Shown here: one piece after another, positions 6,976 to 26,319 of the stretch | Layout: every line of letters begins with the position of its first letter | How positions within the stretch are numbered: position 1 is the stretch's first letter | DNA from: Promethearchaeum syntrophicum | GTDB lineage: Archaea; Asgardarchaeota; Lokiarchaeia; Sigyniarchaeales; Promethearchaeaceae | NCBI RefSeq assembly: GCF_008000775.2 | Contig: NZ_CP042905.2 | Location: 4,050,001-4,082,000 of the forward strand | Reading direction: 5' to 3' | Length of the DNA: 32,000 nucleotides | Translations under genes and position numbers: made by a program | Notes under the pieces: model-generated | Databases searched by the model: none | What the model saw: only the letters and a program-made list of their open reading frames with translations | Told to the model about the DNA's origin: nothing

Positions 6976-8325
6976 TCACCGTTTCTGATATTTAGATTTT
7001 TGATTTTTAGATCCTTGATATTGAGATTTTTTGTATTTAGATTTCTGATAACCAGATTTTTGATATTTTGATTTTTGATTACCGGATTTTTGATATTTAG
7101 ATTTGGATCCTTGGTATTTTCCCTTGCTTTTTTGTTGAAAATCGGGCTTAATCTCCTGTTTTTTAGGGGCTCTTGGAAATTGAGTTTTAATTTTTTCTAT
7201 TTTTCTCTCAATCTCTTCTTTATATTTATCCCCAATAAATTCCCCTTTATAATAATCAACTTTCGCTAGAATACTTATTTTTCCAGAAACCATTCGGGCG
7301 ATTTTTCCACGTAGATACGCTTTTTCTCCTCGAATTTTGTTCCATTGAAATAAAATTCCATATTTAGGAGTTTTTCCACCAGATTTTAATGCTTTGAATA
7401 AGGCTTTTTCAGCCCCTAAAATTTGAATAGTGCTGGATGAAAATTTCGCTAATCTTTCTAAACTTCCTGCAATTGAAATTAGTTTGGCTGTTATTGAAGC
7501 ACCTAAAACAAATTTTAAATTGGGAGCAACTGAATCTAATGCTTCCGAAATGTATTCCTCCAGACTAATTCGATATTCTATTTGATCTAAAACGGTTTTC
7601 GCTAATCTTTTAATCGTAATAATGTCTGTTTCTGATAAATCTCCCCCCAATGATCGTTTCGCTTTTGCTTCAACTGTCTCAATTTTATCTTCACTTAAAC
7701 CGGTAATGGATTGAATTTGATCTACTGTAAAATTATCCCTAAGTCCTAATTCTGCAACAAGTTTTGCATATATAGTGTGGTCATAAATTAATTTATCCGT
7801 TAATTCGGGAAAATGTAACCCATACCATTCTCTCAGTCTTGTTGATAAAATATTAATGGATTTATCCAGATCGACAATAGAATCCCCAGCTTGTTTAATT
7901 TGATAATCTTTTTGGGTAATACTTTCAGCGAATTGTTCTTTAATCATGATTTCCGAGAGAATTTTCGATCTCGAATATAACTGTTTTGCCTTAAAGGGAA
8001 TTTTCGAATCTAATAAGAGTTGTATCAGATTTTCTCTTAAATCTCTAAAACGTGGAATATCTTCGGTAATTACACCAGAAACATCAGAAATATCTTTAAA
8101 AAGAGGTTTATAAGAAGGATTTTCTATTTCAACTGCGGAACAACCTTGTTCTTTCAATTTTTGAATAAATTGCTGAAAATCTGGAGGAAGTTCTCCTTTC
8201 TCCATTAGAATATAGTAGTTGGCCAAATCATTTAATGATTTATCATGATAAATAGTTCCAATTACTTTATTTTTCTCATTTAATACAATTATTCCATGGA
8301 CCGATGTTAATAGTAAAGCTTTCAT
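6976..8325 (-). CDS. nop5: C/D box snoRNP protein Nop5 (Nop56/58 homologue) with a lysine-rich repeat tail
   Basis: Contains the Nop domain ('LGAEKALFKALKSGGKTPKYGILFQ', 'RGKIARMVSGKISILAKVDYY') and forms an operon with flpA. I prefer ATG at 8325 (MKALLLTS...) over the track's TTG at 8334. Confidence 0.9.
   Translation of the reverse strand: MKALLLTSVHGIIVLNEKNKVIGTIYHDKSLNDLANYYILMEKGELPPDFQQFIQKLKEQGCSAVEIENPSYKPLFKDISDVSGVITEDIPRFRDLRENLIQLLLDSKIPFKAKQLYSRSKILSEIMIKEQFAESITQKDYQIKQAGDSIVDLDKSINILSTRLREWYGLHFPELTDKLIYDHTIYAKLVAELGLRDNFTVDQIQSITGLSEDKIETVEAKAKRSLGGDLSETDIITIKRLAKTVLDQIEYRISLEEYISEALDSVAPNLKFVLGASITAKLISIAGSLERLAKFSSSTIQILGAEKALFKALKSGGKTPKYGILFQWNKIRGEKAYLRGKIARMVSGKISILAKVDYYKGEFIGDKYKEEIERKIEKIKTQFPRAPKKQEIKPDFQQKSKGKYQGSKSKYQKSGNQKSKYQKSGYQKSKYKKSQYQGSKNQKSKYQKR
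6979..7137 (-). repeat. in-frame imperfect 30-nt (10-aa) tandem repeat encoding the Nop5 C-terminal tail
   Basis: The last 53 aa read QQKSKGKYQG/SKSKYQKSGN/QKSKYQKSGY/QKSKYKKSQY/QGSKNQKSKY/QKR. The matching plus-strand DNA shows repeated 'gatttttgatatttagattt'-like units. Confidence 0.8.
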
Positions 8326-8444
8326 TAGGTTCAACCGAATTCTTCGATATATTCATCAATTCTTATTAAGCAAAAAATTTTTTGCCTTTCGAATTTTAAT
8401 TTTCATAAGGAATTAGAAAATTCTTGAAAAAAGGAGTCATCAGA

Positions 8445-10277: not shown

Positions 10278-11954
10278 TTGGAAGATAAGCAGCCCAAAGT
10301 CAATTCTGAGGAAGTTATAAGAGCAGTCTCTCGTGAATTAATTGAATTTCTTCTACGACATCCAGATACTAAAAAAATTAAACTAACTGCTATTAAGTGT
10401 AAAATTGGTAAAAAACATGGTTTTATTAATGTAATTAAAGACTCAGTTGTAAGATCCTATGCAACTCCTGAAGAACAAGAAAAACTAGAATTAATTCTCC
10501 GTCGTCGCTTAACCCGTACACTTTCAGGGGTTACAATTGTTGCAGTGATGACGGCACCAGCTCCGGCTGGTTCGAAAAGCTGTCCTGGTAACTGTCTGTT
10601 TTGCCCAGGGGAATCTTCACAACCAGACGTAAAAGTTGCCCAATCCTATACTGGAAGGGAACCTGCCGCAATGCGCTCGGCGATGTATCATTATGATCCA
10701 TACGAACAAACTCTCCATCGACTTGAAGATTTAGCTGCCATCGGGCATCATCCGGATAAAATCGAGCTCATCATCATGGGAGGGACGTTCCTCTATTTTC
10801 CGCGCACCTATCAAGAAGATTTTGTCAAGGGGTGCTACGATGCTATTATTAATTTTCGAGAACCGAATTACAATGATGGAAAACGCACCACCAGTTTACA
10901 AGTGGCGATCGAAAAATTAGAGACCGCGAAAACGCGGCTCATTGGACTGACTTTTGAAACCCGACCCGATTATTGCTTTGAAGAGCATGTGGATCGGATG
11001 CTAGAATTAGGTGCTACACGGGTTGAAATCGGCATTCAAAGCACCCGTGAAGATTTATTGTCATTTTCCAGACGAAACCATACGGTGGCAGATAACAAAC
11101 GGGCGATTCAAGTGGCCAAAGATGCTGGTTTGAAAGTAAACGCCCATATAATGCCGAATCTTCCCCTGTCCTCACCAGAAACCGATATCGAAGTATTCCG
11201 AGAACTCTTTCGAGATCCGGAGTTTCGACCCGATATGATGAAACTGTACCCTTGTTTAGTCGTAAAAGGCACCGATCTCTATAATATGTATCTCTCGGGG
11301 GAGTACGAGCCTTATTCCCAAGAAAAGGTCATTCAAGTCTTGATGCAAATCAAAACCGAATTACCGCCCTATGTTCGGATTCAACGCATTCAACGCGATA
11401 TTCCAGTTGATTTGATTAAAGCGGGGGTAAAAAATTCCAATTTACGTCAAATTATTCAAACCCGCCTACTCGCGGAAGGAAAGCATTGTAACTGTATACG
11501 GTGTCGAGAAGAAGGTTTTTATGCCCAAAAACGATCCCAAACACGGGAACATGTGGATCTTTCAGGCGTTAAATTTGAGGATTTCACATATGCAGCCTCA
11601 GGAGGAGAAGAACATTTTCTGTCGTTCGAAGATCACGATAGACGTATGTTAATCGGGTACCTTAGATTGCGGTTTCTATCACCGAAGGCTCACCGTCCCG
11701 AGGTTTGTGATCAGCGTGTAGCAATTGTCAGAGAAATTCGGGTAGTGGGTGAAATTGTGGGACACGATTCAATCCCCCGTCAAGGTCAGATCCAACATCG
11801 TGGATATGGGAAAGAGCTCATGCAGAACGCTGAAGAAATTGCACGACAACATGGATGTACCAAACTTCTGGTCATTGCTGGAATCGGTGCCCGACCTTAT
11901 TTTTATAACCTCGGTTATTCTTTTGATGGAGTTTATGTAGCAAAAAAGATTTAA
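10278..11954 (+). CDS. elp3: Elp3-type radical SAM/GNAT tRNA uridine(34) modification enzyme
   Basis: Has 'RTLSGVTIVAVMT', the cysteine cluster 'CPGNCLFCPG', radical-SAM core motifs and a C-terminal GNAT 'QHRGYGKELMQNAEEIA'. The TTG start is the only in-frame start before the conserved N-terminus. Confidence 0.9.
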   Translation: MEDKQPKVNSEEVIRAVSRELIEFLLRHPDTKKIKLTAIKCKIGKKHGFINVIKDSVVRSYATPEEQEKLELILRRRLTRTLSGVTIVAVMTAPAPAGSKSCPGNCLFCPGESSQPDVKVAQSYTGREPAAMRSAMYHYDPYEQTLHRLEDLAAIGHHPDKIELIIMGGTFLYFPRTYQEDFVKGCYDAIINFREPNYNDGKRTTSLQVAIEKLETAKTRLIGLTFETRPDYCFEEHVDRMLELGATRVEIGIQSTREDLLSFSRRNHTVADNKRAIQVAKDAGLKVNAHIMPNLPLSSPETDIEVFRELFRDPEFRPDMMKLYPCLVVKGTDLYNMYLSGEYEPYSQEKVIQVLMQIKTELPPYVRIQRIQRDIPVDLIKAGVKNSNLRQIIQTRLLAEGKHCNCIRCREEGFYAQKRSQTREHVDLSGVKFEDFTYAASGGEEHFLSFEDHDRRMLIGYLRLRFLSPKAHRPEVCDQRVAIVREIRVVGEIVGHDSIPRQGQIQHRGYGKELMQNAEEIARQHGCTKLLVIAGIGARPYFYNLGYSFDGVYVAKKI

Positions 11955-12883: not shown

Positions 12884-13080
12884 CTTTTTTCCTTTTCTAC
12901 TGGTAACAAATTATCCTTTTTGCTTTTAAATTGATGGTTTCGTTTTTACCCCCAAAAATAATTTCACACTTTTCACAACCACTTAATAGATAAAAGGAAC
13001 ATTTAAAGCGACATATTAAATTAAAACACGCATTCATGAAAAATAAAAGATTAACAAACTAATTGCTATTTGAAAAGATA

Positions 13081-13250
13081 TTGCCTGGCTCACAACCAAG
13101 CCAGACATGTGGAAAATAGAGAGTTGTTGAAAAAAGTTTGGTAGTTCCTACATCTTTGATTCGTGGTTGTGAAATGTGGGGATGCTACGATGCGATAGAC
13201 AATTTTTTCTTGATCAAATCTGATCATCCATACGTCTACGATGGATAATT
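13081..13250. ncRNA. candidate structured non-coding RNA or regulatory element downstream of the giant RuvC gene (strand undetermined)
   Basis: Noticeably more G+C than the flanking intergenic DNA. Hairpins: ctggct(13085-13090)/agccag(13099-13104), and atccat(13226-13231)/atggat(13241-13246) with an inner cg/cg pair. Repeated 9-mer TCACAACCA at 12973-12981 and 13090-13098, with its reverse complement at 13164-13172. ATGTGG occurs twice (13107, 13174) and CTACGATG twice (13185, 13236). There is no transcript evidence. Confidence 0.25.
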
Positions 13251-13405
13251 ATATTAAGAAATTAATGATATATAAATATTTCGTTAATCTATTAGCGGGA
13301 ATAAGAAAATGAGAAAAAATACGCATTATAACCTGAATATCGCTGATTTTACAATAAAAAAACATTGGAAAAGATTTTCGAATGGAAAGAACGTTGGATT
13401 TTTGA

Positions 13406-16400
13406 TTAGATGTTAGAGTAAATTTCGGTAAATCGTTTTAGATCTTTATCATCAGAGGTTGGACTTAGCAATCCTTGAAGCTTTTTGATAATTTTTTTGA
13501 AAGATTTGATTTGTTTTGATTCTTCACAATAATCATTGCGCTTCTTTAGAGTGTTGATTAATAATGTGAATTCTGAGTTTGATAAATTTTTGAACGAAAA
13601 GTAAATATTTTCATTTTCTTTTGAATATGTATGTTCACTGTTAACATCCTCCACGTAAATATTTTTTATTTTGTGAGATAGAACATTCGATAATTGTGTG
13701 ATGAGCGTGTTAAACTGATTTTTTATCTTCTCTTGAGATTTTATTGGAAATCTTGTTTCACGAGCAATCCATAAATTGATTATTTTTGCATAATATATGA
13801 TGGGATCATAATTATGGATGTTTGCGGAAGCGTTGATGTCCCTATTGGCGTAAGTTTTATAATCTGAGCAGTGAAAAACAATACCTGATTGGGAGAAAAT
13901 AAAGACAAGAATTGTTTTTTTATCTGTTTTTTTATTTGTTTTTAGAAGGAAATTTTCTGTATTGATTTTGTTTAAAATTCTTTTGTAATCCCAGATCTGA
14001 AGATCGGCTTTTTTGTATTTGGGGCCCGTTATTTTGACTTTATTTATTTCAGTCGGTTTTTCGGGAGCATGTAAAATTTTATTGTTTTTTCTAATATATT
14101 TGAGTTTATTGGCATTATCTTTGGACAAAACCTCACTTGGAATTGTTATTAGATATCCCTTTAATCCTTCTTTTCCACAAACAGAACATAATTTACTTGT
14201 ATAGGCGGGAGGAACTGTTTTGAGTAAAAATCCGGATAAATTGCTTTTTTCTTCAAGATAATCTTTAAAATTTCCTCGAAGCCAACGAGCGGCGGCCTCT
14301 GAAAATTTACTTCCTTTTTTTGCTTGAAATCCCCTTAAATCTTCGATATAAATCACAGTATCGTCGTTTAAATGTTTTTTAAGATTATGTGGGGAATTAG
14401 AACTGGATTTTTTTGATTTAACATAGTCTGCAATAACCTCTATACTTTGACGAATTGACGTATCCGCTATGTTTTGCTCTTTAGTATTGATTTTCTGTTT
14501 ATAATTTAGGTAGTTTATTCTGAAATAAGAGGGTTTTTTTTTGATGTAGGTGAGGTCCAATTTTTTCTGGAATTGGCTTGCAGACGAAGATAATTTTTTG
14601 GTTTTTTTTATCATTTTATCTATTGATTTATTGATTTCATCAAATGAATCAATGCTTGTGTTTTTGGTATCTCCTTCTAGGGCATCGTAATTTAGAAATT
14701 CTCTTAGCCCTAAATCTATTCCGAGTTTGTTTTTAACATCTAAACCATCTTTAGACATATAAGATGTGGGCTGAATAAAAGGAACAGCACAACCTACCGA
14801 CAAAATGATTTTACCATTGGGTTTAATTGAAACAATGACTGATTTTAGTGGTGAAGAAAGTAGCTGCTTGTAAGGAGTCGGTGTTTTTCTGTATAATAAA
14901 GAAATGAAGGCAGAAATAATTCTTTTGAGATTTTCGGTACGGGGATCTCTACCAAGGTGGAATTTTTTATTTGATTTTAAAGACGCGGTTACCCAATTAT
15001 AAAATATTATCAAAGTATCAATTATAATTATAAATTCGGCAGAAGTTGTGATGATATTAAGGTTTTTAAACTTTTCAATAGTTTTAGATACACTTTTCAT
15101 TTTTTCTAATTCATCTTTCTTCGAATTAAGTGTTAACGTTTGTATTGATGTTAAAGTTTTCTTTCTTTCTAATTTTTTTATCTGGGTATTTATTTTTGTG
15201 ATTTCAGGTTGTAAAAAAACATCGAAAAATTTTGCGTAATTGTAGTAGAGGGATCGAATAGTCTGAAAATCAACAGAACCGAATTCTTTATTTTTCAATT
15301 TTTTTAATTCATTTTTCTTCGATTTCAACATTTCCTGCATTTGCTGAACCCAGATTTTTATTTCCTCTCTTCTTTCTATTTCTTCAATTTCATCATCAAA
15401 TGTAGCAATTTCGTATTCCATTTCTTCAATTTCGCCCTCTAGTTCTTCAATTTCATTTTCATACGCTTCAATTTTACCTTCTAAATCCTTAATTTCGGGA
15501 GTGAATTTAAGGATGCGGTCCTTCATTTCTTTAAAAATCATGTCTGTATTTTCATATGCTGAGAAAAATTGTTTGAATTTTAACCAAATATAGTTTAATG
15601 GAGGTCCTGTAGAATTATTATCATCAAAGTAGGCTATTGTGAAATTTTTCCCTTTTTTTGAATCATCACATATCTTTGAAGTCCAAAAATTTTGATTTTT
15701 TTCATCTGGAGGATGTGTATTAAGAAGAGAATCGGTTAAATCTTTAAATTCTTGAAAAATCCTCCAATTTTTTGAACTGGAAGCGTTTTGGCTATTTTTG
15801 AATTGGTTTTCGGTTTTAAGACCGAATTTAGATGTTAGTAAATAATAATTATATATTTCGGTATTAGGAACTTTTACAGGGATAAATATCAGAAGATAAA
15901 TTTGGCGAAGAATATCGGTTTCTTCTTGTCTATTATAATGACCAACCATATAATAATGGTAACTCTTTGATTTTCCTACTCTGCTACTTGAAAGCAAAGA
16001 TTGGAGAGAGTATGATTCATATTTTTTCAATTCATCTAATTTTTCTAAAGTAATTTTTTTGGTAAAAATTTCGAAATTGGTCTTCCTAAAATTTGGTCTT
16101 TTCAATAAATGATTAAGTAAAAAATGATTTTCAATAGCCTCTTTTTTAGTAATATCCAGTTTCTTACTAATCTCATCATAATTATCCATGGTTTCTTCTG
16201 AAATATCGAAAGGGTTCTTAATGTCAAGGTGTTCGGTTTCTTTATCGATTTCAAAAAAATTATCGAAAATTAAAACTTCTTTTGGAAATTCGGAAAATAA
16301 TTTTTTTTCTTCATATAAACTCTGCTTGATTTTGTTAATGTCTTTAAGCGATGAAATGGAATAATCACGAGATTTTAAAAATTTCTTTGTGAGAAGAAAA

Positions 16401-19400
16401 GTTCGATTGTCTTTTTCCCAATTATCTTTAATCATTCCGGGAGTAAATTCGATTCCTTTAAGCCAATTAACGAGTTCCTTAGAGTTTTTTATATGATCAG
16501 ATGATATGTATTTTTTTTTTGAATCGAGTTTGATTACGTGATGACATAAATAATTCAATTGTCTATGATCATGCCAAACTTTTTTCCAATCAAAAACAAT
16601 ATCGCCATCCTTATCCTTGAAAACAATTTCTTTATATTCTTTCATGCATTCGGTCCAAGAATTTAGGTTTGTATTTTCCAGACCGATATGTTTTAACTTA
16701 AAATTTTGCTTCCATTTGTATATTTTATCAGTGTTGATAATAGGGTAATTGTTTTTTTTTATGGTTCTATATATTATTTTTGATATATCACGTTCCGATC
16801 GGATTATTTTTGAAAAAACACGATGGAAAGAATCGTCATCGTTTTCAATTTTAATTGGATTCAAATATAGATATTCATTATTATCGAAGTCCATGAAATT
16901 CTCAATGATTTTTAGAATTTTAGTTAAATCTTCATTGATTCCAAAATCCGAAACTATTTCTTTTGTAATCTCTTTGTATTCGATCTTGATTTTGGCGGCA
17001 ATGTCCTCAAAATCTTTAACCCATGGTTGGCGGCGTTTTACCCTATTGGTTTCTTGTATTATTGATTTTAGCGATTTTACAATTCCTGAACTTTTTAATT
17101 GGGGGTTGTTTAGTAGGAGACTTATGATAATTTTCAGGTTTTTTATTTGTTCATTGAACCACAATTCCCGAGATTCCATAATATTATTTAATGTGGAAAA
17201 CAAAGGGTTAGTTCGTTCAAATTCAGGAATTTCATCCTTATTTATAAGTAATTCTAAAAAATCCTCATTCTGAAGCGAATCTGAATTTTTAAAGAATTTC
17301 CAATGTTCTTTTGAATCATTTTGAAGGTTAATCAGTTCTTTTTTTGATTTGTTCAATTCGCTTTTAATTACAAGACATTTCTCACAAGATACCGCATAAT
17401 TATCTACCAGTTCTTCCACACATTTTAAGAGTGTAAGCCCTTGAGAAAAATGGATGTATTGAATAGGTGATTTTTGTTTTGTGAGAAAGGATTCTGATAT
17501 AATGTCAACGCTTAAAGCAATGATCTGTAAAATTTGTTTTTTATGCTTCTTCTCATACACAATGTTATTCAAATTACCATAATTGGTATTATTCAGTTCA
17601 TAGTATTGATTTTTTAAAGAATTGATTAATTCATTAAAGAAATTGTCTGTTGTGGGTAGTATCTTTGAAAGTTTAGAAGGAAAATTTGTTAAGTTTATTG
17701 ATTTTTCTTCTATGTTTTTTCCTTTTTTCAAGATAATCTTATTTTTTCCCTTCTTTGGAACTATTAAATCAACATAATTATAATCATTACATGAATATAT
17801 TTGAGGAGAATTTTTACCGAATTTGAAAAGATCTTCTTCATCTTCTGTATAAAAATCACCAGTTTCTGAAAAGAAAGCGTATTTGAGCCCGTAATTTGTA
17901 AATTTATTAAAAAGATTATTAAAATTATTGCTGATGGTAATTTTTTTTTTAATGTCTAAATTTTCCAGCTCTTCTTCTGATTTTTCATCTGGAATTAAAG
18001 ACGAAAAAATGGAAAAATCACTTGTGGTTTCGATCATTTCGAGATATTTCCTATAGAAATTATTAAGATCTTCGTGGAATTCTTTGAAAAGAGGATTAAG
18101 TTTTTTTGTTTTTGGATCAATGATATGAAACGCAATTTCTGAGCGGTTTTTTTTAATAATTTCTCGATTAAGAGATTTAAAAACGTTTTTATTAAACCTA
18201 ACTAAAGGATTGAATTTGGTTTCACTATTTTGAATAAATGTAAGAGGTGATGGGGTTTTAATCAACCCTAATGCATGAGAAAAAGGTTTTGATCCAAATG
18301 TTTTTTCTGTGGTTCTATTTAAATTTTGAAAAATTGCATTCTTTACTTCTTCATTTTTTTTGAAATGTTTTTCATAAATTTTTTTTCGGTTTTTTTTGAT
18401 TTTGTAAAGAGATTTTTCGTGTTTTGATAGGTATATATCAAGAATATCAGAAAAATCCTCGGGGCTTGGAAATACTAGAGTGGAATTTATTTTGGAATTA
18501 ACTTTATTGAAAAATTGAACATAATCAATTTTCCAGCTCTCGAAAGTCTGTAAAAATGTTATGGATTCGTCATCAGGTAATAATTTTTCTAATTTTCTTA
18601 ATTCTTTTTCTAATTCCTTTTCTTTTTCTTCTAGTTTTTTTTTTTTCTCTTCATCAGAACCATCTAAATTCTTTTTAAATCTTTTTAATTTCGATTCGGA
18701 TTCCTTATTTAGAAGTTCTCCAAATTTCTTTTTTAAATTAGATAAAATTTTTGATAGATCATCTGAAAATAAAGAAAGATCTTCATCACAATAAAACCCT
18801 TGAACATTCTCCGAAAACCTAAATTGCTGAGATATGTGAGCAAAATTAAAAATATTGTTATAAATATCAAAGTATGATGGATTTAATTTCAGTTTAGATC
18901 GTTTGGACACATAACTAAGCAAATTTCTGTAAATTTCGTTTCGTTTGAAAATTTTGTTTTTAGAAGTCTGAAGAGATTTTAGATGATTGTTAATGTCTTT
19001 CTCGTCAAAATTAAAGGGAATTTTTTTTAAATCAATGTTTTTACTATGAATTTTATCGTGAATCGATTTAATTGTTTCTGTATCTTTGGGATTTTTCGTC
19101 TTGAAAATATTTCCTGCACTCATAGTAAGGGTTCTAAAAATATTTCCAATCTGATAACGGTGTTTTCTTATTGAAAGATTAATTACTTTGGGATCGGGAT
19201 CTTGAATAAAAACATAAAAATCGCTATTTGGACGCATGCAGTGAGCCAATTCTCTCATATCCATGCCAGGATCTATATCATCCATGCTGAGTTCAGGATA
19301 AAGTACCTCATTATTATATGGATCGTCAGGATCTGTATGAGGACCTTTTGGGATAAGTATGTTTTGAAGGATATACAATGGAGAATCGGGGCTAAGAACA

Positions 19401-19678
19401 ATTTTTTTATTTCGTTTGTAATCAAAATAGTCATAAGTAACCTGTTCCGGCTTTTCTAAACCTAAAATTCTATGAATTCCGTATTTGATGGTAAATTCCT
19501 TAAGGGAAATACAATCCAAACTCATATTGCATGGCTCATTTACTATTAAATTACGAATTTGAATCGGAACATCAGTAATTATTTTTCCTTTTTTATCCAA
19601 TTTGAAGTAATCGTGCTCGAATGAATAATAATCGTGATCTTCTGGGTATTCGGAGGGGTTGGGATTTTCAATGGTCAT
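13406..19678 (-). CDS. giant (2,090 aa) protein with a C-terminal TnpB/Cas12-like RuvC nuclease module and an unrecognised ~1,550-aa N-terminal region
   Basis: The ORF is an uninterrupted 6,273 nt in very AT-rich DNA, where chance ORFs are short. The C-terminal layout matches TnpB/Cas12: '...KIILSVGCAVP...NKLGIDLGLREF' (RuvC-I, D1655, nt 14714-14716); 'DTVIYIEDLRG' (RuvC-II, E1779, nt 14342-14344); 'PPAYTSKLCSVCGKEG' (YTSxxCxxCG zinc-ribbon entry, C1831/C1834); 'YANRDINASANI' (RuvC-III, D1947, nt 13838-13840). The N-terminal part shows only charged coiled-coil stretches, for example 'EEKKKKLEEKEKELEKELRKLEKLL' and 'LEGKIEAYENEIEELEGEIEEMEYEIATFDDEIEEIERREE'. Confidence 0.75.
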   Translation of the reverse strand: MTIENPNPSEYPEDHDYYSFEHDYFKLDKKGKIITDVPIQIRNLIVNEPCNMSLDCISLKEFTIKYGIHRILGLEKPEQVTYDYFDYKRNKKIVLSPDSPLYILQNILIPKGPHTDPDDPYNNEVLYPELSMDDIDPGMDMRELAHCMRPNSDFYVFIQDPDPKVINLSIRKHRYQIGNIFRTLTMSAGNIFKTKNPKDTETIKSIHDKIHSKNIDLKKIPFNFDEKDINNHLKSLQTSKNKIFKRNEIYRNLLSYVSKRSKLKLNPSYFDIYNNIFNFAHISQQFRFSENVQGFYCDEDLSLFSDDLSKILSNLKKKFGELLNKESESKLKRFKKNLDGSDEEKKKKLEEKEKELEKELRKLEKLLPDDESITFLQTFESWKIDYVQFFNKVNSKINSTLVFPSPEDFSDILDIYLSKHEKSLYKIKKNRKKIYEKHFKKNEEVKNAIFQNLNRTTEKTFGSKPFSHALGLIKTPSPLTFIQNSETKFNPLVRFNKNVFKSLNREIIKKNRSEIAFHIIDPKTKKLNPLFKEFHEDLNNFYRKYLEMIETTSDFSIFSSLIPDEKSEEELENLDIKKKITISNNFNNLFNKFTNYGLKYAFFSETGDFYTEDEEDLFKFGKNSPQIYSCNDYNYVDLIVPKKGKNKIILKKGKNIEEKSINLTNFPSKLSKILPTTDNFFNELINSLKNQYYELNNTNYGNLNNIVYEKKHKKQILQIIALSVDIISESFLTKQKSPIQYIHFSQGLTLLKCVEELVDNYAVSCEKCLVIKSELNKSKKELINLQNDSKEHWKFFKNSDSLQNEDFLELLINKDEIPEFERTNPLFSTLNNIMESRELWFNEQIKNLKIIISLLLNNPQLKSSGIVKSLKSIIQETNRVKRRQPWVKDFEDIAAKIKIEYKEITKEIVSDFGINEDLTKILKIIENFMDFDNNEYLYLNPIKIENDDDSFHRVFSKIIRSERDISKIIYRTIKKNNYPIINTDKIYKWKQNFKLKHIGLENTNLNSWTECMKEYKEIVFKDKDGDIVFDWKKVWHDHRQLNYLCHHVIKLDSKKKYISSDHIKNSKELVNWLKGIEFTPGMIKDNWEKDNRTFLLTKKFLKSRDYSISSLKDINKIKQSLYEEKKLFSEFPKEVLIFDNFFEIDKETEHLDIKNPFDISEETMDNYDEISKKLDITKKEAIENHFLLNHLLKRPNFRKTNFEIFTKKITLEKLDELKKYESYSLQSLLSSSRVGKSKSYHYYMVGHYNRQEETDILRQIYLLIFIPVKVPNTEIYNYYLLTSKFGLKTENQFKNSQNASSSKNWRIFQEFKDLTDSLLNTHPPDEKNQNFWTSKICDDSKKGKNFTIAYFDDNNSTGPPLNYIWLKFKQFFSAYENTDMIFKEMKDRILKFTPEIKDLEGKIEAYENEIEELEGEIEEMEYEIATFDDEIEEIERREEIKIWVQQMQEMLKSKKNELKKLKNKEFGSVDFQTIRSLYYNYAKFFDVFLQPEITKINTQIKKLERKKTLTSIQTLTLNSKKDELEKMKSVSKTIEKFKNLNIITTSAEFIIIIDTLIIFYNWVTASLKSNKKFHLGRDPRTENLKRIISAFISLLYRKTPTPYKQLLSSPLKSVIVSIKPNGKIILSVGCAVPFIQPTSYMSKDGLDVKNKLGIDLGLREFLNYDALEGDTKNTSIDSFDEINKSIDKMIKKTKKLSSSASQFQKKLDLTYIKKKPSYFRINYLNYKQKINTKEQNIADTSIRQSIEVIADYVKSKKSSSNSPHNLKKHLNDDTVIYIEDLRGFQAKKGSKFSEAAARWLRGNFKDYLEEKSNLSGFLLKTVPPAYTSKLCSVCGKEGLKGYLITIPSEVLSKDNANKLKYIRKNNKILHAPEKPTEINKVKITGPKYKKADLQIWDYKRILNKINTENFLLKTNKKTDKKTILVFIFSQSGIVFHCSDYKTYANRDINASANIHNYDPIIYYAKIINLWIARETRFPIKSQEKIKNQFNTLITQLSNVLSHKIKNIYVEDVNSEHTYSKENENIYFSFKNLSNSEFTLLINTLKKRNDYCEESKQIKSFKKIIKKLQGLLSPTSDDKDLKRFTEIYSNI

Positions 19679-19940: not shown

Positions 19941-22223
19941 TTATTTTAGACTCACTCTTTTCCCGTTTCTGACCTTTTTAATCTCTACATTATGGCGGTT
20001 TTTTAAATGAGTTGAATGAGTTGAAAATTTTTTAACTATTTTCAAACTATCTTTTGTCACGATCGAAACTGTTACTTCTTTGTTCTCAGGCAATTGGAAA
20101 ATATTTCGAAATTTTTCGGATGTGAAATATTCCTGTAAAGATTTATTTTGAAATAGGTTGGAATTTTTAATATCCGAACTCAGTTTTTTGACCGCTCGTA
20201 AATAATCCGCTCTTTTGTAGTCAAAATTACGAACAATCGTCGGGAAATTGGTCACGTATAAATTATGGTTTTTAAAATAATGTGAAACAAACGGCAAACT
20301 CTGTCTTACCATGAACTGTTTGCGATCTTTATCTGTAATGGGATTTTGAATGGCTAAGATTTTATCTTTTTTGGCGAAGGTATCCCAAGCTTCTCGCACA
20401 GTCATATCCACAAGATCGAATTTTTCAACATCTATCTCGAAATAATGCCCAAGTTCTTTGATTGAAAAGGACTTTTGGGTTCTATTTATTTTAACCCCGT
20501 AATATAATATTTCTGCATCGGGAACCACGAAATCAAGGGCGACTTTAACCATAGGCGATAGTAAAAAGGTTCTCATGGGCGTGTCAGAAAGAATGAAACC
20601 GGTTGGAACTTTCTTTTTTAATAAATCGGAGAGAATAGTAAGGAGTTGGGGGCGATAAATGTCTTCATTAAATGCTGCCGCTTTCCAAAGTCGCATAAAC
20701 CGATTAAGGCCGATAGGATATAAATTAGGAAAATCCATAGCAATTACACGCACTTCTCTGGAAAGAGTAACATTGCCTGCCATTAAATTCCGTAAATACA
20801 TTTTGCGATCGAATAACATATCGAAGAAATTATTATCGCTTACCAATGCGTGTTTATATAATCCATTACCAAATTTTTCCCAAATCTTTTTAATTGCAGG
20901 ATCGGATATGTTCCAAATGTCCCGATATGCGCCCTTAACAGCGATTCCAAGACCATAAGCCACGATTGCGAAGGGGATAAGTTCCATAAACTGCGGAATT
21001 TCGAAGAAATATAGCGACTTCATGCGAATATCTCCAGGCATTGGAATGGCTTTTTGGAGCCTTTTTAGTTTATAATCGAGCTTTCTCTGATATCGATCCC
21101 TTTCATTTTCGATTCGTTTTATTTGCACTTTGATTTGTTTTATTTTCTTATCCACACGCGCAATTTCGGTATCGGCACGCGCTACCATATATACTAAATC
21201 CTTTAGTTCTTCGGTGGCATTTTTACGCTTTTTTGCTCGCTCTCTTATTTTTCGTTCTTTTTCTTTTCGCCTTTGTTCTTCTATTTTTTTATTTCGGGCG
21301 ATATTATCGTCAAGTTGATTCATCCAATCGCTTTTTCTCTGGCGGGATTTTTTTCTTTGGGCTTCAATTTCTGCAATTTCGGCCCAGCGTTTTATTTCTT
21401 GGAGGTGCCTTTCTTCTTTTAGTAGTTTTTCTTCCTCAGCACGGATCCGTAAAAATTCATTAAAATGTAATTCTGTTTTTTCCAAAACTTTTATCCAATT
21501 AATATCTTGATGTTTCACCAACCATTCCGCCCATTCTTCGATACTGATTATGGATTCAGGTTCCGCTGCTTGTTTTTTAGTTGTGGGCCAAATTTTAAAT
21601 CTGATTTTTGCCTTTCTAAAATAATGAATTGCAATCGGAACTTCGTTTTCACCTTCTAATTGCCAATATGTATAAGGTTTAAGAACAATTTTATTCCATC
21701 CATGCAGTGATCTTAAATTAAAATTGGCAAACAGGCTCGTTCCCATTTCCTTTTGCATTTGGTGCAAGAAGGAATGGCTTAAATCATCTTCGTGTTCGAG
21801 ATAATAAGTAACTACCCATTTGGCAGGAAAAGTATAACCATCATACATGAAATTATTTCGATGTTCGAACTGCAATCGTTCTTCCGTCTGGAACATAACG
21901 GCCATGTCCTCAATCAATTTTATTTTTTCAATATCCATTTGATCGTGAAATATGTCCGCTTCATCGATGTTATTCTGGTTGTAATTGATCCGCTGCCTGC
22001 GATATTTTGATGTTGAATCACAATTATTTGACGGGATTTTATTGCGTTTATATCCTACGGCATAGGGAAATTTTTGTTGAGGGCGATCCAAAGCGAGCCA
22101 TTTTTCATCATCTTCAGAATTATCTTCTGCAATAGAAGGATCGAAGTCTTCTTGTTTCTCTTTAATGATGTTTTCCAGAACATATTTATCACGATAATTG
22201 TCGGGTTCGTTATCTTTTTCCAT
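19941..22223 (-). CDS. hypothetical ~760-aa protein with a central highly charged coiled coil, cassette member
   Basis: Long ORF. I place the start at ATG 22221-22223 ('MEKDNEPDNYRDKY...'), which leaves a 25-nt gap after the upstream 108-aa ORF. The track's start at 22346 would overlap that ORF by 98 nt. The central segment 'RAEEEKLLKEERHLQEIKRWAEIAEIEAQRKKSRQRK...EEQRRKEKERKIRERAKKRK...IKVQIKRIENERDRYQRKL' is K/R/E-rich. It is followed by the hydrophobic segment 'FMELIPFAIVAYGLGIAV'. No known domain recognised. Confidence 0.6.
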   Translation of the reverse strand: MEKDNEPDNYRDKYVLENIIKEKQEDFDPSIAEDNSEDDEKWLALDRPQQKFPYAVGYKRNKIPSNNCDSTSKYRRQRINYNQNNIDEADIFHDQMDIEKIKLIEDMAVMFQTEERLQFEHRNNFMYDGYTFPAKWVVTYYLEHEDDLSHSFLHQMQKEMGTSLFANFNLRSLHGWNKIVLKPYTYWQLEGENEVPIAIHYFRKAKIRFKIWPTTKKQAAEPESIISIEEWAEWLVKHQDINWIKVLEKTELHFNEFLRIRAEEEKLLKEERHLQEIKRWAEIAEIEAQRKKSRQRKSDWMNQLDDNIARNKKIEEQRRKEKERKIRERAKKRKNATEELKDLVYMVARADTEIARVDKKIKQIKVQIKRIENERDRYQRKLDYKLKRLQKAIPMPGDIRMKSLYFFEIPQFMELIPFAIVAYGLGIAVKGAYRDIWNISDPAIKKIWEKFGNGLYKHALVSDNNFFDMLFDRKMYLRNLMAGNVTLSREVRVIAMDFPNLYPIGLNRFMRLWKAAAFNEDIYRPQLLTILSDLLKKKVPTGFILSDTPMRTFLLSPMVKVALDFVVPDAEILYYGVKINRTQKSFSIKELGHYFEIDVEKFDLVDMTVREAWDTFAKKDKILAIQNPITDKDRKQFMVRQSLPFVSHYFKNHNLYVTNFPTIVRNFDYKRADYLRAVKKLSSDIKNSNLFQNKSLQEYFTSEKFRNIFQLPENKEVTVSIVTKDSLKIVKKFSTHSTHLKNRHNVEIKKVRNGKRVSLK

Positions 22224-22248
22224 TTTGATTTTCTCTCGATTATGTTTC

Positions 22249-22575
22249 TTATAATGGATTAAAAAAATCGATACTTTGCTGTATTTTTTCAATTTTGGTA
22301 GGTGTTTCTTGATTTTCATAAATTTCTTGTTCTTTGTTATTTTCATCTTTAATATTTCGGGCTCTTGTGAGTCTACTCATAAAATCAAATACAATTTTCC
22401 CATTTTCATCATTATCATCCCCCAATTTGCTTCTTATATGCTTTATGAGATCCAGAGCTTTATACATTGAATCTGGATCGTCAAATAATCTTTGATACCA
22501 GCGGGAAAATTTATGTTTATAACAATCCATATCTAAAAATGCCGAATTTCTGTGGAGTTTGTTTTCTTGTTCCAT
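22249..22575 (-). CDS. hypothetical 108-aa protein, first gene of the minus-strand cassette
   Basis: ORF directly downstream of the divergent intergenic region and co-directional with the three following genes. No motif recognised. Confidence 0.5.
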   Translation of the reverse strand: MEQENKLHRNSAFLDMDCYKHKFSRWYQRLFDDPDSMYKALDLIKHIRSKLGDDNDENGKIVFDFMSRLTRARNIKDENNKEQEIYENQETPTKIEKIQQSIDFFNPL

Positions 22576-23276
22576 TTTTTTTTCTGTTCCTTTTTTGTTT
22601 ATTTTTCGCTTTTTTGCTCTATAATAATCACCGATTTAGCGGATCCTGAATACCACTGTTTTTCCAAAAAACTAAATTTCCCCCGATTTTTTTGAAAAAT
22701 GATTTATACTAATTATATTTGAGCTAAACAACCAATATAAATGTTAATGGGCTCAATGTATCCTATATTGACTGAATGTTCTCAATAGATAAGTTCATAT
22801 TTAAAGAATGTTCCGATAGAGTACTTTGGATCTCTATCGGGTACTTTGGATCTCTATCGGGTACTTTGAGCCCAATATTTAAATGAACAATTGAAAAAAT
22901 TGAAGAATAAAGAGTATTTTGAAAATTCGTTAAAAATTTATCTCATATGGAACGTATATTAAACTAAATCCTTATTAATTAAATAATGTGAAGTAGTTTG
23001 TTATGATTTTGATTAAGCGTCCCCTGTTTTTTATAAGAATATTTGTCAATAGGAAAAAAACACAAATTCTGTTACATTGTTTGTAATATTAAATGGTGTA
23101 AAAAAATCTTCCTAAATAATGGTTTCTCGAAAGTCATAATACCCGAGACAATTTCGACTAAGTTTTACTAACTAACTATAAGATGATGGATAATTTTTTA
23201 AACATCATTTCTAAAATATTAATCAGAAAGAAACAAAGCATGTATTGAGTATTATTTTTTAAATTTTTGAAATGAG
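22576..23276. promoter_or_regulatory. divergent promoter/regulatory region between the RuvC cassette and the DISARM-like operon
   Basis: A 701-bp non-coding gap flanked by two outward-facing operons. TATA-like A/T boxes occur on both sides: 'ctataataat' at 22619-22628 for the minus-strand operon and 'ttttttaaat' at 23255-23264 for the plus-strand operon. It contains the tandem/inverted repeat at 22813-22873. Exact promoters are not determinable from sequence alone. Confidence 0.5.
22813..22868. repeat. 20-bp direct tandem repeat (2.4 copies) preceded by an 8-nt inverted arm
   Basis: GTACTTTGGATCTCTATCGG occurs at 22821-22840 and 22841-22860, with a partial third copy GTACTTTG at 22861-22868. 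CCGATAGA (22813-22820) is the reverse complement of TCTATCGG (22833-22840 and 22853-22860). The outer pair GGGCTCA (22749-22755) / TGAGCCC (22867-22873) brackets the block. Confidence 0.9.
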
Positions 23277-26200: not shown

Positions 26201-26318
26201 GAAGAATTTGCAAGCAAAGAACTTGGTTGATCTTGAAGACTTGAAAGGAATGGATGACATTTCTATAATTTCCTATGATCCTATTAGTGTAACTCTCTTC
26301 TATCCAGGAGGTTATTAA
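23277..26318 (+). CDS. SNF2-family helicase/ATPase (DrmD-like)
   Basis: SNF2 motifs: 'LIADDVGLGKTIEAG' (I), 'VVIDEAHN' (II, D253 at nt 24033), 'LLLTATPHNG' (III), 'ATDCMSEGIDLQ' and 'WNPNRLEQRNGRVDRFGQ' (VI). Three closely spaced ATGs (23277, 23283, 23289) make the exact start ambiguous. Confidence 0.9.
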   Translation: MLMVMSKVDFQIGQVVDARNRLWRIERIITKKSEFEEDANINLLEVSSIDGVPSRCNLLLNIVKTSEGKEIVETIENIKEAKILKPDTSKLGNPDFQKVLIQAMRYDLIFGTSNFISLANSRVIPVSYQMVPVLMAMAQEKVRLLIADDVGLGKTIEAGLIIQELLGRRKINRVLFAVPANLREQWRSIMQRFFGIEAKILSSQTRRKLQKELLVGGDPWGYYNFLITSQDYLSRQEILERAIQFKFDMVVIDEAHNIAKPRYMMRSGGNKKSKRKNKMAVSLSKYPHLLLLTATPHNGYHESFASLIHLLNPELVDDKNDWAIDPENAKRFICQRRKADVMKWMEDDKKRKLFPTVHRIEEFIIPSVEFKEVIKCLDQYKDLVFKSAKEDGKGVRFIKFWGVLHIYRRLISSPQALLKTIYNKIRDSNEKTDTSGKKIKLREEEIQDILEKVRSNVTDTNTDENLEEYEIDRKNDSEFGSEKLGPDLIKKLSELETLTKKCLGRKKDPKFNYFYNNTLQQLLNFNKKIIIFTRYIDTADYICLELTKIVQKKSLMKGFEIIGVVGTDPIHVREEKYRKFLGLEKGIMVATDCMSEGIDLQYSSNIVVNYELTWNPNRLEQRNGRVDRFGQPEKDVYLRTLIIKESLELAILDLLYRKIKNIGGDMGYIPKYFGNMDLIGDILNDYFEEEEEFRFVKTKHGAKQLTLDNYGVFADEMKEMLSNHVDNNMNNIISEDSFYGQTVFDFSDVQERMDEMEKSIGNINGLLLFLQKSLPFFDCSIEPMKKSNFPPNAVFKITLSDTLLEIMNKDEITGNECIITTDPYFGAKQQDIETLSLKSPVLNSIISIVKEKGFITTHDFYGRTAAASSDLISELTAVLYYKIRYLVSTKEQSIMEELLPIGLKIYEDKPLLKREKTEKLWTQYTSGKTSDYPGIANQVKQNIKDLFDRSDFDSVIKNAIKSNLCVVVDNSRNLMKNLQAKNLVDLEDLKGMDDISIISYDPISVTLFYPGGY

Positions 26319-26319
26319 A

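What the first reader, a model, noticed from the sequence alone, without database searches (positions are those of the whole stretch)
12950..13405. GC-richer intergenic block full of repeats and hairpins immediately 3' of the RuvC gene: a candidate guide/omega-RNA-like locus
Seen: the 522-bp gap after the giant gene's stop contains an island (about 13081-13250) with clearly more G+C than its AT-rich flanks. It has two stem-loops (13085-13104 and 13226-13246). An exact 10-nt inverted pair is present, TCACAACCAC 12973-12982 versus GTGGTTGTGA 13163-13172, with a third copy of TCACAACCA at 13090-13098. There are also duplicated ATGTGG and CTACGATG motifs. Established: TnpB omega-RNAs and several Cas12 scaffold RNAs are encoded at or just beyond the 3' end of the nuclease gene. 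Inference: this is where a cognate non-coding RNA or a transposon right-end relic would be expected. It could instead be the regulatory region of the downstream 272-aa gene.
Basis: partly seen in the sequence, partly recalled or inferred. Interest (0 to 1): 0.65.

Follow-up and report, generated by a model that had tools for sequence, protein, structure and literature searches.

The report
Conserved RNA gene beside giant archaeal nuclease
The GC-richer block after the 2,090-aa gene is a separate gene for a folded non-coding RNA, and the same RNA sits after every distantly related giant TnpB/Cas12-like gene of Asgard archaea whose downstream DNA could be read, so it is probably that protein's RNA partner.

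Summary
The 522-bp gap holds a 39% GC island between 25% GC flanks, with the reported hairpins and repeats.

Comparison with other loci shows what the island is. Distant relatives of the giant gene (22-32% identity in the RuvC part, all named ones from Promethearchaeota) were found. In all 7 independent loci with at least about 290 bp of downstream DNA, the same module lies 123-226 nt after the stop codon, on the gene's strand:
- an archaeal TATA box (TTTAWATA) starting 30 nt (32 in one locus) before the first hairpin base;
- hairpin hp1, with 5 of 6 pairs showing compensatory changes and 100% of cells paired;
- a near-invariant hairpin hp2, GAUCA-NNUU-UGAUC;
- an A-rich linker;
- a short stretch that pairs with the hp1 loop, forming a pseudoknot (5 sequence classes).

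A variable 19-52 nt segment follows, then in five of the six loci read that far an AUUU[C/G] block that starts a 3' helix.

No Rfam family, CRISPR array, transposase or conserved small ORF explains the module. The downstream genes differ and are often convergent.

Best reading: a new ωRNA-like cofactor RNA of a new family of giant RuvC nucleases. A guide function is plausible but not shown.

The parts
13269..13276 (-). Archaeal TATA box TTTATATA, preceded by an A-rich BRE-like CGAAATA. Predicted transcription start at A13246, with T at -1.
   Evidence: The TTTAWATA start lies exactly 30 nt before the first hairpin base in 6 of 7 loci and 32 nt in one. By my own reading of the printed sequences, six of the seven loci have T at -1 and a purine at +1, and L093 does too only if the start is moved one base upstream.
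13226..13246 (-). hp1: 6-bp stem AUCCAU/AUGGAU with the 9-nt loop CGUAGACGU.
   Evidence: 6 pairs across 7 loci, with 100% of cells paired. 5 of 6 pairs show changes on both sides. 0 of 500 shuffles reach the observed covariation score. The two G-U pairs would be A-C mismatches on the other strand.
13209..13225 (-). Conserved core GAUCAGAUUUGAUCAAG. hp2 is GAUCA-GAUU-UGAUC (13212-13225), stacked directly on hp1.
   Evidence: The 17-mer is identical in the window, L031 and L093. The pattern GATCANNTTTGATC is present once, downstream and on the gene's strand, in every locus. The covariance model gives 37-62 bits for all seven (expected for the seed sequences).
13201..13211 (-). A-rich linker AAGAAAAAAUU.
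   Evidence: It is conserved as [A/G]AGAAAAAA in 5 of 7 loci and is A-rich in the other two.
13195..13200 (-). Pseudoknot 3' strand GUCUAU, which pairs with the hp1 loop GUAGAC (13234-13239).
   Evidence: In every locus the hp1 loop is complementary to a stretch that starts 10-11 nt after hp2. There are five different sequence classes. Own loop against own partner averages -6.56 kcal/mol, against -3.36 for mismatched loci (permutation p = 0.0013).
13176..13194 (-). Variable segment CGCAUCGUAGCAUCCCCAC. The equivalent segment is 19-52 nt long in the other loci and is not conserved. It is a candidate guide.
   Evidence: No exact match in IMG/VR viral contigs.
13163..13178 (-). Block A, CACAUUUCACAACCAC. 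It holds the recurrent AUUUC and is the 5' strand of a 3' helix.
   Evidence: ATTT[CG] recurs in 5 of the 6 loci read that far. In the window, L033 and L094 the block pairs with a downstream partner over 12, 10 and 11 contiguous bp (0, 1 and 2 of 300 shuffles do as well). In L031 and L092 the pairing is not significant.
13130..13135 (-). T6 run, the first candidate archaeal terminator. It would give an RNA of about 112-117 nt.
   Evidence: A T6 run lies 76 nt after hp2 in the window and in L031. In L033 a T5 run lies at 71 nt and a T6 run at 88 nt.
13071..13107 (-). Hairpin UGUCUGGCU-UGGUUGUG-AGCCAGGCA followed by AUAUCUUUUC. Its apical part (loop and inner stem) carries UGGUUGUGA (13090-13098), complementary to block A. 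This is the second candidate 3' end, giving an RNA of about 174 nt.
   Evidence: Terminator-like site on the minus strand: 3 such sites found in the region against 0.4 expected. L031 has the same design, with TTCTGAAT paired to ATTCAGAA inside a hairpin loop.
12954..12982 (-). Distal arm GUGGUUGUGAAAAGUG (12967-12982), complementary to block A at 15 of 16 positions, followed by a T5 run (12954-12958).
   Evidence: It is either the far strand of a long 3' helix or a separate RNA or DNA target of block A. This is unresolved.
13406..19678 (-). 2,090-aa protein. Only its C-terminal part (about aa 1434-1950) is recognisable, as a TnpB/Cas12f-like RuvC plus TNB domain, with D1655, E1780 and D1947 present.
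   Evidence: Pfam PF07282 at 9.7e-11, above its cut-off. NCBIfam guided_TnpB at 5.8e-15, below its cut-off. PADLOC Cas12f at 1.2e-5. Best PDB match to a family profile is Cas12f1 at 2e-6.
19941..22346 (-). 801-aa protein upstream, weakly homologous to about aa 308-770 of the 2,743-aa relative P0015. It is probably a split-off N-terminal part of the same system.
   Evidence: tblastn 4.5e-10 and 6e-7.

Best explanation
The island is a stand-alone gene for a structured non-coding RNA on the minus strand, the same strand as the giant gene.

Anatomy. Transcription is predicted to start at about 13246 from the RNA's own TATA promoter (13269-13276). The RNA would end at the T6 run (about 115 nt) or after the next hairpin (about 174 nt). 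Its 5' 52 nt form a conserved module:
- hairpin hp1;
- hairpin hp2, stacked directly on hp1, with a nearly invariant sequence;
- an A-rich linker;
- a strand that pairs back to the hp1 loop, making a pseudoknot.
A variable segment follows, then an AUUUC-initiated 3' helix.

Inferred function. This RNA is the dedicated partner of a family of giant (about 1,000 to 3,741 aa) TnpB/Cas12-like RuvC proteins, seen so far only in Promethearchaeota (Asgard archaea). The conserved 5' module is most likely the protein-binding scaffold, as in TnpB ωRNAs and Cas12 crRNA handles. The variable part would supply specificity by base pairing.

What is shown: conservation, covariation, promoter geometry and exclusive linkage to the giant gene. 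What is inferred: expression, protein binding and guiding.
For: 1. Linkage. The pattern GATCANNTTTGATC occurs once, on the gene's strand, with the RNA's first hairpin 123-226 nt after the stop codon. This holds in all 7 independent loci with at least about 290 bp of downstream DNA: the window, L031, L033, L035, L092, L093 and L094 (L094 and L096 are the same sequence). The proteins share only 22-32% identity in the RuvC part.
2. Specificity. The covariance model finds no other copy in the window, nor in the nine genome loci L001-L009 and the 21 metagenome loci of ordinary ~525-aa TnpB genes (L010-L030).
3. hp1. 100% of cells are paired, 5 of 6 pairs show compensatory changes, and 0 of 500 shuffles reach the observed score. 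Sliding the 3' partners by 1-3 columns leaves only 17-44% of cells paired.
4. Pseudoknot. Five sequence classes keep the pairing, with permutation p = 0.0013.
5. Promoter. TTTAWATA starts exactly 30 nt before the first hairpin base in 6 of 7 loci and 32 nt in one, with an A-rich BRE-like stretch upstream. This matches the established archaeal geometry, a TATA box centred about 26-27 nt upstream of the start.
6. Strand. The G-U pairs in hp1, the pseudoknot and the distal helix fit only the gene-sense strand.
7. Protein. The catalytic D, E and D residues and the TNB domain are present.
8. Context. The downstream genes differ between loci: Nmad3, a C2H2 zinc-finger protein, an IF-2B family protein and an unknown 323-aa protein. 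Three of these four are convergent.
9. Not coding. The 45-aa ORF that starts in hp2 has ATG only in the window and L093. The others have CTG, ACG, TAG or GTG at that position, and the peptides diverge after MIRFDQEK.
Against: - There are no expression or binding data.
- No guide-target pair was found. Three candidate guide segments have no exact match in IMG/VR, and matches within the window are at chance level apart from the local inverted repeat.
- hp2 never varies, so it gives no covariation evidence. It could also be read as two TGATCA palindromes 10 bp apart, that is, a DNA site.
- The variable segment is internal, whereas TnpB and Cas12 guides sit at the 3' end.
- The 3' end is ambiguous, with three candidate ends.
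- Only 7 loci were available. hp1 loops were trimmed by hand for the seed alignment, and in L094 hp1 is separated from hp2 by a 40-nt insertion.
- Whole-block folding z-scores are unremarkable.
- The AlphaFold model of the C-terminal domain was poor (pLDDT 49.8).
Confidence: 0.6

Rival explanations
1. It is a conserved non-coding RNA linked to the giant gene, but not a guide. It could be a structural or regulatory cofactor, or an RNA that controls expression or activity of the giant nuclease (for example an antitoxin-like or autoregulatory RNA). Block A would act by antisense pairing on neighbouring transcripts, such as the 12967-12982 site upstream of the Nmad3 gene.
For: The same conservation evidence applies. 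The only strong complementarity of the RNA is local: block A pairs with 12967-12982 at 15 of 16 positions, and comparable cis partners exist in L033 and L094. No external target was found. In L093 and L094 the RNA runs antisense into a convergent gene.
Against: The partner protein belongs to a superfamily whose characterised members use an adjacent RNA as a guide (established knowledge). The downstream targets are not conserved. The AUUUC block is itself conserved, which fits a structural helix better than a gene-specific antisense site.
Confidence: 0.22
2. It is a DNA-level element. It could be a transposon end or recombination site whose hairpin forms in single-stranded DNA (as at IS200/IS605 ends), or an operator made of two TGATCA palindromes 10 bp apart.
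For: hp2 is invariant and palindromic, so a protein-binding DNA site would be equally conserved. TnpB genes normally lie next to a transposon right end (established knowledge). Inverted repeats flank the distal part.
Against: - No Y1 or serine transposase was found among the window ORFs scanned.
- The TATA box is at a fixed distance of 30 nt.
- The G-U pairs would be A-C mismatches on the other strand.
- Pseudoknot covariation has no role at an operator.
- No second copy lies in the window or upstream of any giant gene.
- No duplication or target-site repeats were seen.
Confidence: 0.08
3. It is the promoter, operator or leader of the downstream 272-aa Nmad3 gene.
For: The gene is co-oriented and starts at 12883. 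TATA-like boxes lie at about 13001-13008 and 12924-12932 by eye. The 12967-12982 arm lies 84-99 nt upstream of the ATG.
Against: The conserved module recurs where the downstream gene is unrelated and convergent. Nmad3 is absent from the other loci. A T6 run and a terminator-like hairpin separate the module from the gene.
Confidence: 0.05
4. It is a small protein gene: the 45-aa ORF 13090-13227 on the minus strand, beginning MIRFDQEK.
For: The ORF exists. A parallel 43-aa ORF in L093 also begins MIRFDQEK (my own translation of the printed sequence).
Against: The start codon position reads CTG, ACG, CTG and TAG in L031, L033, L035 and L092. There is no similarity beyond the 8 residues that are forced by the conserved nucleotides. 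The stem covariation is not explained by coding.
Confidence: 0.02

Closest known systems
TnpB ωRNA (reRNA) of IS200/IS605 OMEGA systems
   Same: A structured RNA encoded on the nuclease's strand at its 3' side. The partner protein has a RuvC plus TNB core that NCBIfam's guided_TnpB model detects (5.8e-15). The scaffold contains a pseudoknot, and a non-conserved segment follows a conserved one.
   Different: - The RNA starts 123-226 nt after the stop codon, from its own TATA promoter, and does not overlap the ORF's 3' end or a transposon right end.
- No TnpA and no transposon ends are present.
- The protein is 3-9 times larger and scores below the family cut-off (55.5 against 100 bits).
- No Rfam family matches.
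- The variable segment is internal, followed by a conserved 3' helix, rather than a 3'-terminal guide.
Archaeal sense-overlapping transcripts (sotRNAs) of IS1341-type tnpB genes (recalled from memory, Gomes-Filho et al. 2015; related: PMC12558985)
   Same: An archaeal TnpB-linked RNA that has its own transcription start.
   Different: Those RNAs start inside the tnpB ORF and belong to multicopy insertion sequences. This one is fully intergenic and is linked to a giant gene not found in an insertion sequence.
Type V CRISPR effectors (Cas12a crRNA 5' handle; Cas12f, Cas12g and Cas12b, the best PDB matches)
   Same: The RuvC plus zinc-ribbon core gives its best matches among solved structures to Cas12f1, Cas12g and a large Cas12b-like protein. 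The compact 5' pseudoknotted handle followed by a variable sequence recalls the Cas12a crRNA.
   Different: No CRISPR array was found in the window or in any homologous locus. No cas1 or cas2 was seen. There is a single RNA gene with its own promoter and terminator.
Exapted, non-mobile TnpB derivatives (TldR; PMC10705468; exapted clades in PMC10691335)
   Same: A TnpB-derived protein outside a transposon, kept together with an adjacent guide-like RNA gene.
   Different: TldRs are small and have an inactivated RuvC. Here the D, E and D residues are intact and the protein carries more than 1,400 extra N-terminal residues of unknown fold. Within PMC10691335 I read only the passages matching three search terms (Asgard, giant, largest). 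These described aCas1-linked Asgard TnpBs and a largest Cas12b of 1,888 aa.
Fanzor ωRNA (eukaryotes and giant viruses)
   Same: A TnpB descendant with a 3'-encoded ωRNA, often with enlarged proteins.
   Different: The host here is archaeal. No chain whose listed molecule name says Fanzor appeared in the family-profile search of the PDB at E up to 1.

Membership tests
TnpB/Cas12 RuvC-TNB superfamily (protein) | Split RuvC with catalytic D (motif I), E (motif II) and D (motif III) | tested here: met
   GIDLG (D1655), YIEDL (E1780) and RDINAS (D1947). The motifs align across 8 family members.
TnpB/Cas12 RuvC-TNB superfamily (protein) | Zinc-ribbon TNB domain inserted in RuvC | tested here: met
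   Pfam PF07282 at 42.1 bits against a cut-off of 26.3. The first CxxC is present (C1831/C1834). The second pair has degenerated to H1935/C1936, and three relatives lack the cysteines.
TnpB proper (NCBIfam NF040570 guided_TnpB) | Whole-protein score above the curated cut-off | tested here: not met
   55.5 bits against a cut-off of 100. The match covers profile positions 37-354 of 389, at aa 1434-1836.
OMEGA / IS200-IS605 ωRNA | RNA on the nuclease's strand at the 3' side of the gene | tested here: met
   7 of 7 loci.
OMEGA / IS200-IS605 ωRNA | RNA overlaps the 3' end of tnpB and the transposon right end; element carries TnpA or defined ends | tested here: not met
   A gap of 123-226 nt separates the stop codon from the RNA's first hairpin, and the RNA has its own TATA box. 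No transposase domain was found in the ORFs scanned. No IS-like repeats were seen.
OMEGA / IS200-IS605 ωRNA | 3'-terminal guide that matches the DNA flanking the element | not testable with these tools
   The RNA ends are unknown. No target was identified.
Known RNA families (Rfam 15) | Match at the gathering score | tested here: not met
   No match in the window or in six homologous loci. At E up to 10 there were only two chance hits, both outside the module.
CRISPR-Cas type V | CRISPR array next to the effector | tested here: not met
   TRF, the repeat finder and a k-mer scan found no array in the window or in 9 related loci.
TldR-type nuclease-dead TnpB repressors | Inactivated RuvC catalytic residues | tested here: not met
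   The D, E and D residues are intact and conserved in the family.
Archaeal C/D-box sRNA | Box C (RUGAUGA) and box D (CUGA) pairs forming k-turns | tested here: not met
   By eye the core reads UGAUCA, not UGAUGA. No C/D-box family hits the module. The one weak SNORD51 hit (E = 4.1) lies at 13489-13535, inside the giant ORF.

The most novel reading that the evidence does not exclude
Asgard archaea carry a previously undescribed RNA-guided system with three features. The effector is a giant (2,000 to 3,700 aa, sometimes split) TnpB-derived protein with an active RuvC. Its RNA is a single, independently transcribed, pseudoknotted RNA gene. The variable segment of that RNA programmes the target. 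The system would have no array and no transposon, would sit in defence islands (here next to DISARM genes), and would have an RNA architecture (5' scaffold, internal variable region, 3' closing helix) unlike any known ωRNA or crRNA.
Probability: 0.35. Interest if true: 0.9.

Novelty: new variant of a known kind. Interest (0 to 1): 0.75.

Why it matters
TnpB is the ancestor of Cas12 and Fanzor, and each exaptation of it found so far has revealed new RNA-guided biology. This finding has three implications.

- It concerns a lineage seen so far only in the archaea closest to eukaryotes. The proteins have grown to 1,000-3,741 aa, of which only about 500 are recognisable, yet they keep a dedicated RNA gene whose core is better conserved than the protein.
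- It turns an orphan 'hypothetical protein' family into a testable RNA-protein system, with a defined RNA, promoter and structure ready for reconstitution.
- It provides a new RNA family (seed alignment and covariance model) for annotating Asgard genomes.

If the variable segment is a guide, this would be a new architecture of programmable nuclease. It could also shed light on what the huge N-terminal extensions do.

Tried and rejected
- Word-indexed protein searches. The full 2,090-aa protein, an 8-sequence alignment and P0002 each returned only the query or nothing. In the first of these the 8,000-candidate limit was reached.
- Genome and metagenome scans with conserved peptides. The first scan, with the window's C-terminal 551 aa alone, found nothing. 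The later scans returned only ordinary 258-570-aa TnpB genes or fragments and no giant relatives. These loci served as negative controls.
- Viral-contig scan with the protein motif: 3 unrelated hits.
- Viral-contig scan with the RNA core. The 54 hits fit my own rough estimate of the number expected by chance. Three copies in one 437-kb contig share only hp2 and lack hp1.
- Protospacer scans with three candidate guide segments: none found.
- Matches of the RNA elsewhere in the window are at chance level. An 11-nt match inside ELP3 (about 10833-10843) extends only with a gap.
- Rfam at gathering and at relaxed thresholds: nothing.
- Tandem duplication of the gap: the alignment score is below the shuffled mean.
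- AlphaFold2 of the C-terminal 551 aa with an 8-sequence alignment gave pLDDT 49.8, so no fold search was run.
- RNAalifold on MAFFT alignments of the whole RNAs. The variable region misaligns and only hp2 was recovered. A hand-registered seed alignment was used instead.
- A formal column-wise count of the pseudoknot pairs was not possible, because its register shifts by 1-2 nt between loci. A duplex-energy permutation test was used instead.
Full report
**Setting.** The window is a piece of an archaeal chromosome.
- It encodes fibrillarin, Nop5, ELP3 and RNase HII.
- It is 31.7% GC, and the record holding the giant protein is a 4.32-Mb contig.
- The giant ORF (13406-19678, minus strand, 2,090 aa) is recognisable only in its last ~500 residues. 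These form a TnpB/Cas12f-type RuvC plus TNB domain: Pfam PF07282 at 9.7e-11, NCBIfam guided_TnpB at 5.8e-15 but below its cut-off, and PADLOC Cas12f at 1.2e-5.
- The catalytic residues D1655, E1780 and D1947 are present.
- Upstream lies an 801-aa protein of unknown function. Beyond it are DISARM-like genes, DrmD and DrmMI.
- Downstream on the same strand is a 272-aa Nmad3-domain gene.
- The window has no CRISPR array, no tRNA and no Rfam match.

**The observation.**
- The gap is 522 bp.
- The island 13081-13250 is 39.4% GC against flanks of 25.9% and 24.5%.
- Hairpins lie at 13226-13246 and about 13082-13107.
- The exact 10-nt inverted pair extends to 16 nt at 15 of 16 positions, and the third TCACAACCA copy is there.
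- Three of the four near-matches to the 10-mer in 32 kb lie within 200 nt, against about 1 expected in the whole window.
- Thermodynamic stability of the block is unremarkable on either strand (z = -1.9 and -1.5). Sequence alone could therefore not settle the question.

**Finding relatives.** Word-based searches returned only the protein itself. A full HMMER scan of 1.84 billion cluster representatives with the C-terminal 551 aa gave only 21 hits. The best were 1,592, 1,008, 1,350, 3,741 and 2,743 aa long (P0002, P0004, P0008, P0011, P0015), at 22-32% identity. They share these motifs: DLGLR, IE[ND]L, EK..W[LI]RG.F, P.YTSK, KG[YF]L and DRD.NAA.NI. All relatives that carry a source name are 'Promethearchaeota archaeon'. 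The 801-aa neighbour is weakly homologous to the N-terminal part of P0015, so the window's system looks like a split version.

**The decisive comparison.** Contigs were recovered for these relatives. Seven independent loci have at least about 290 bp of DNA after the gene: the window, L031, L033, L035, L092, L093 and L094 (L094 and L096 are the same sequence). All seven carry the same element on the gene's strand, starting 123-226 nt after the stop codon. Its parts, in order:
1. A TATA box, TTTAWATA, preceded by an A-rich stretch. It starts exactly 30 nt before the first hairpin base in six loci and 32 nt in one. By my own reading of the printed sequences, six loci have a T-purine step at that base, and L093 does too only if the start is moved one base upstream. 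This is the canonical archaeal promoter geometry.
2. Hairpin hp1, with a different sequence in every locus.
3. Directly abutting it, GAUCA-NNUU-UGAUC (hp2). The 17-mer GATCAGATTTGATCAAG is identical in the window (13225-13209), L031 and L093.
4. An A-rich linker, typically AAGAAAAAA.
5. A stretch of 4-8 nt complementary to the hp1 loop.

L035, L092 and L094 carry an extra 5' hairpin. L094 also has a 40-nt insertion between hp1 and hp2.

**Statistics.**
- On a seed alignment kept in register, the six hp1 pairs are 100% paired in all seven loci. Five of the six show changes on both sides. No shuffle out of 500 reaches the observed covariation score. Sliding the 3' partners by 1-3 columns drops pairing to 17-44%.
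- The loop-to-downstream pairing falls into five sequence classes: GUAGAC/GUCUAU, GCGAA/UUCGC, UUGUGAUG/CAUCAUAA, GUCA/UGAC and GAGG(U)/(A)CCUC. Each locus's own loop and partner average -6.56 kcal/mol, against -3.36 for mismatched loci (permutation p = 0.0013).
- The G-U pairs in hp1, the pseudoknot and the distal helix would be A-C mismatches on the opposite strand.
- A covariance model of hp1, hp2 and the linker scores 37-62 bits on the seven loci, which is expected because they are its seed.
- The same model finds no further copy in the window. It finds none in the nine genome loci L001-L009 or the 21 metagenome loci of ordinary ~525-aa TnpB genes (L010-L030). It finds none upstream of any giant gene.

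**The 3' part.** After the pseudoknot strand comes a non-conserved segment of 19-52 nt (by my own count). In five of the six loci read that far, an AUUU[C/G] block follows and begins a helix.
- The partner of this helix lies 4-180 nt downstream. In the window, block A is CACAUUUCACAACCAC (13178-13163). It pairs with the apical part of the 13107-13082 hairpin (9 nt) and, better, with 12982-12967 (15 of 16).
- Contiguous helices of 12, 10 and 11 bp occur in the window, L033 and L094. Shuffles match them in 0, 1 and 2 of 300 trials. L031 and L092 are not significant.
- A T6 run lies 76 nt after hp2 in the window and in L031. In L033 a T5 run lies at 71 nt and a T6 run at 88 nt.
- The RNA may therefore end at about 115 nt, or read on to about 174 nt or about 290 nt. 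This is unresolved.

**Alternatives.**
- *Leader or operator of the Nmad3 gene.* Rejected for the module, because the downstream genes elsewhere are unrelated and convergent. Nmad3 is also absent from the other loci.
- *Small ORF.* Rejected. The ATG that would start MIRFDQEK reads CTG, ACG, CTG and TAG in four loci, and the peptides diverge immediately after those residues.
- *Transposon end or DNA operator.* Not strictly excluded for the invariant, palindromic hp2. It is disfavoured by the fixed promoter, the strand-specific G-U pairs, the pseudoknot covariation and the absence of a transposase or repeats.
- *Known RNA family.* None matches.
- *CRISPR.* No array in any locus.

**Mechanism.**
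- Shown: a conserved, structured element equipped with a promoter and tightly and exclusively linked to a deeply divergent family of giant RuvC-TNB proteins. Its core is more conserved than the proteins themselves.
- Inferred from what is established for TnpB, Fanzor and Cas12: the RNA is bound by the protein through its 5' pseudoknotted module, and a non-conserved part pairs with a nucleic-acid target to direct the intact RuvC site.
- The A-rich linker crossing hp1 is what one expects of an H-type pseudoknot (inference).
- Against a simple ωRNA analogy: the variable part is internal, no target was found, and the only strong complementarity is local.
- I put about 0.85 on 'cognate ncRNA gene of the giant protein', about 0.6 on 'RNA cofactor bound by it', and about 0.35-0.4 on 'programmable guide'.

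**Novelty.** Text searches of the paper library found no paper among those ranked that mentions TnpB together with Lokiarchaeia, Promethearchaeota or Heimdallarchaeia terms. They found no description of giant Asgard TnpB-like proteins. Within the 2023 TnpB/Cas12 survey I read only the passages matching three search terms. These mention aCas1-linked Asgard TnpBs and a largest Cas12b of 1,888 aa. Within these limits, both the protein family and the RNA appear undescribed. In kind, this is a new variant of the TnpB-plus-adjacent-RNA theme.

**Limits.** Only seven loci were available, and there are no transcript data. The loops of the seed alignment were trimmed by hand. L094 needs an insertion to fit the model. 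The AlphaFold model was too poor to use. The genome and metagenome scans were exhausted before a systematic survey was possible.

Noticed in passing
window 22821-22868 (gap 22576-23276): A perfect 20-nt tandem repeat, GTACTTTGGATCTCTATCGG, in 2.4 copies. Each unit completes a palindrome (CCGATAGAG...CTCTATCGG). TATA-like boxes flank it, in the 701-bp divergent gap between the 108/801-aa genes and drmD. It looks like an operator or a small structured element.
   Followed up: no
window 19941-22346 (-) and L035 10925-12307: The 801-aa protein upstream of the giant gene is weakly homologous to about aa 308-770 of the 2,743-aa relative P0015 (tblastn 4.5e-10). The window's system therefore seems to be a split form, 801 + 2,090 aa. 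L034 also has an 801-aa gene two genes upstream of its 3,741-aa gene, but tblastn detected no similarity to the window's protein.
   Followed up: partly
window 23277-30699 (+): A DISARM-like pair: DrmD (SNF2 helicase, 1.6e-101) and DrmMI (Eco57I-type methylase, 2.8e-85). It lies next to the giant-gene cluster, which suggests a defence island.
   Followed up: partly
L046 57-73, L050 222-238 (-), L090 2526-2542 (IMG/VR contig 3300031133_000383, 437 kb, about 30% GC): Three non-coding copies of A(A)TGATCAGATTTGATCAAG...ACAGTTAAAA(A)CCC. They share the hp2 core of the RNA but have no hp1. One lies next to what looks, by eye, like the 3' end of a tRNA gene. The ORFs starting at the ATG are only 17-55 aa. 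Probably unrelated, but the repeat family is unexplained.
   Followed up: partly
L093 3128-3300 and L094 3267-3530: In two loci the RNA gene runs antisense into the 3' end of a convergent protein gene (an IF-2B family protein and an unknown 323-aa protein). The distal arm of the 3' helix in L094 lies inside that coding sequence.
   Followed up: no
P0008, P0011, P0015 (alignment A1): Three giant relatives have lost the CxxC cysteines of the TNB zinc ribbon but keep the RuvC D, E and D residues. The window protein keeps the first CxxC, and its second pair has become H-C.
   Followed up: no
window 6982-7104 (Nop5 gene 6976-8334, -): The 3' end of the Nop5 gene is a 15-nt tandem repeat. It encodes a lysine-rich (KSKYQ)n C-terminal tail, reminiscent of the charged tails of eukaryotic Nop56/58.
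   Followed up: no
window 10829-10846 (+), inside ELP3: GGGG-TGCTACGATGC-T-AT resembles the reverse complement of the RNA's variable segment (13176-13195): an 11-nt exact match that extends only with a gap and a mismatch. This is within chance expectation for an 11-mer.
   Followed up: partly
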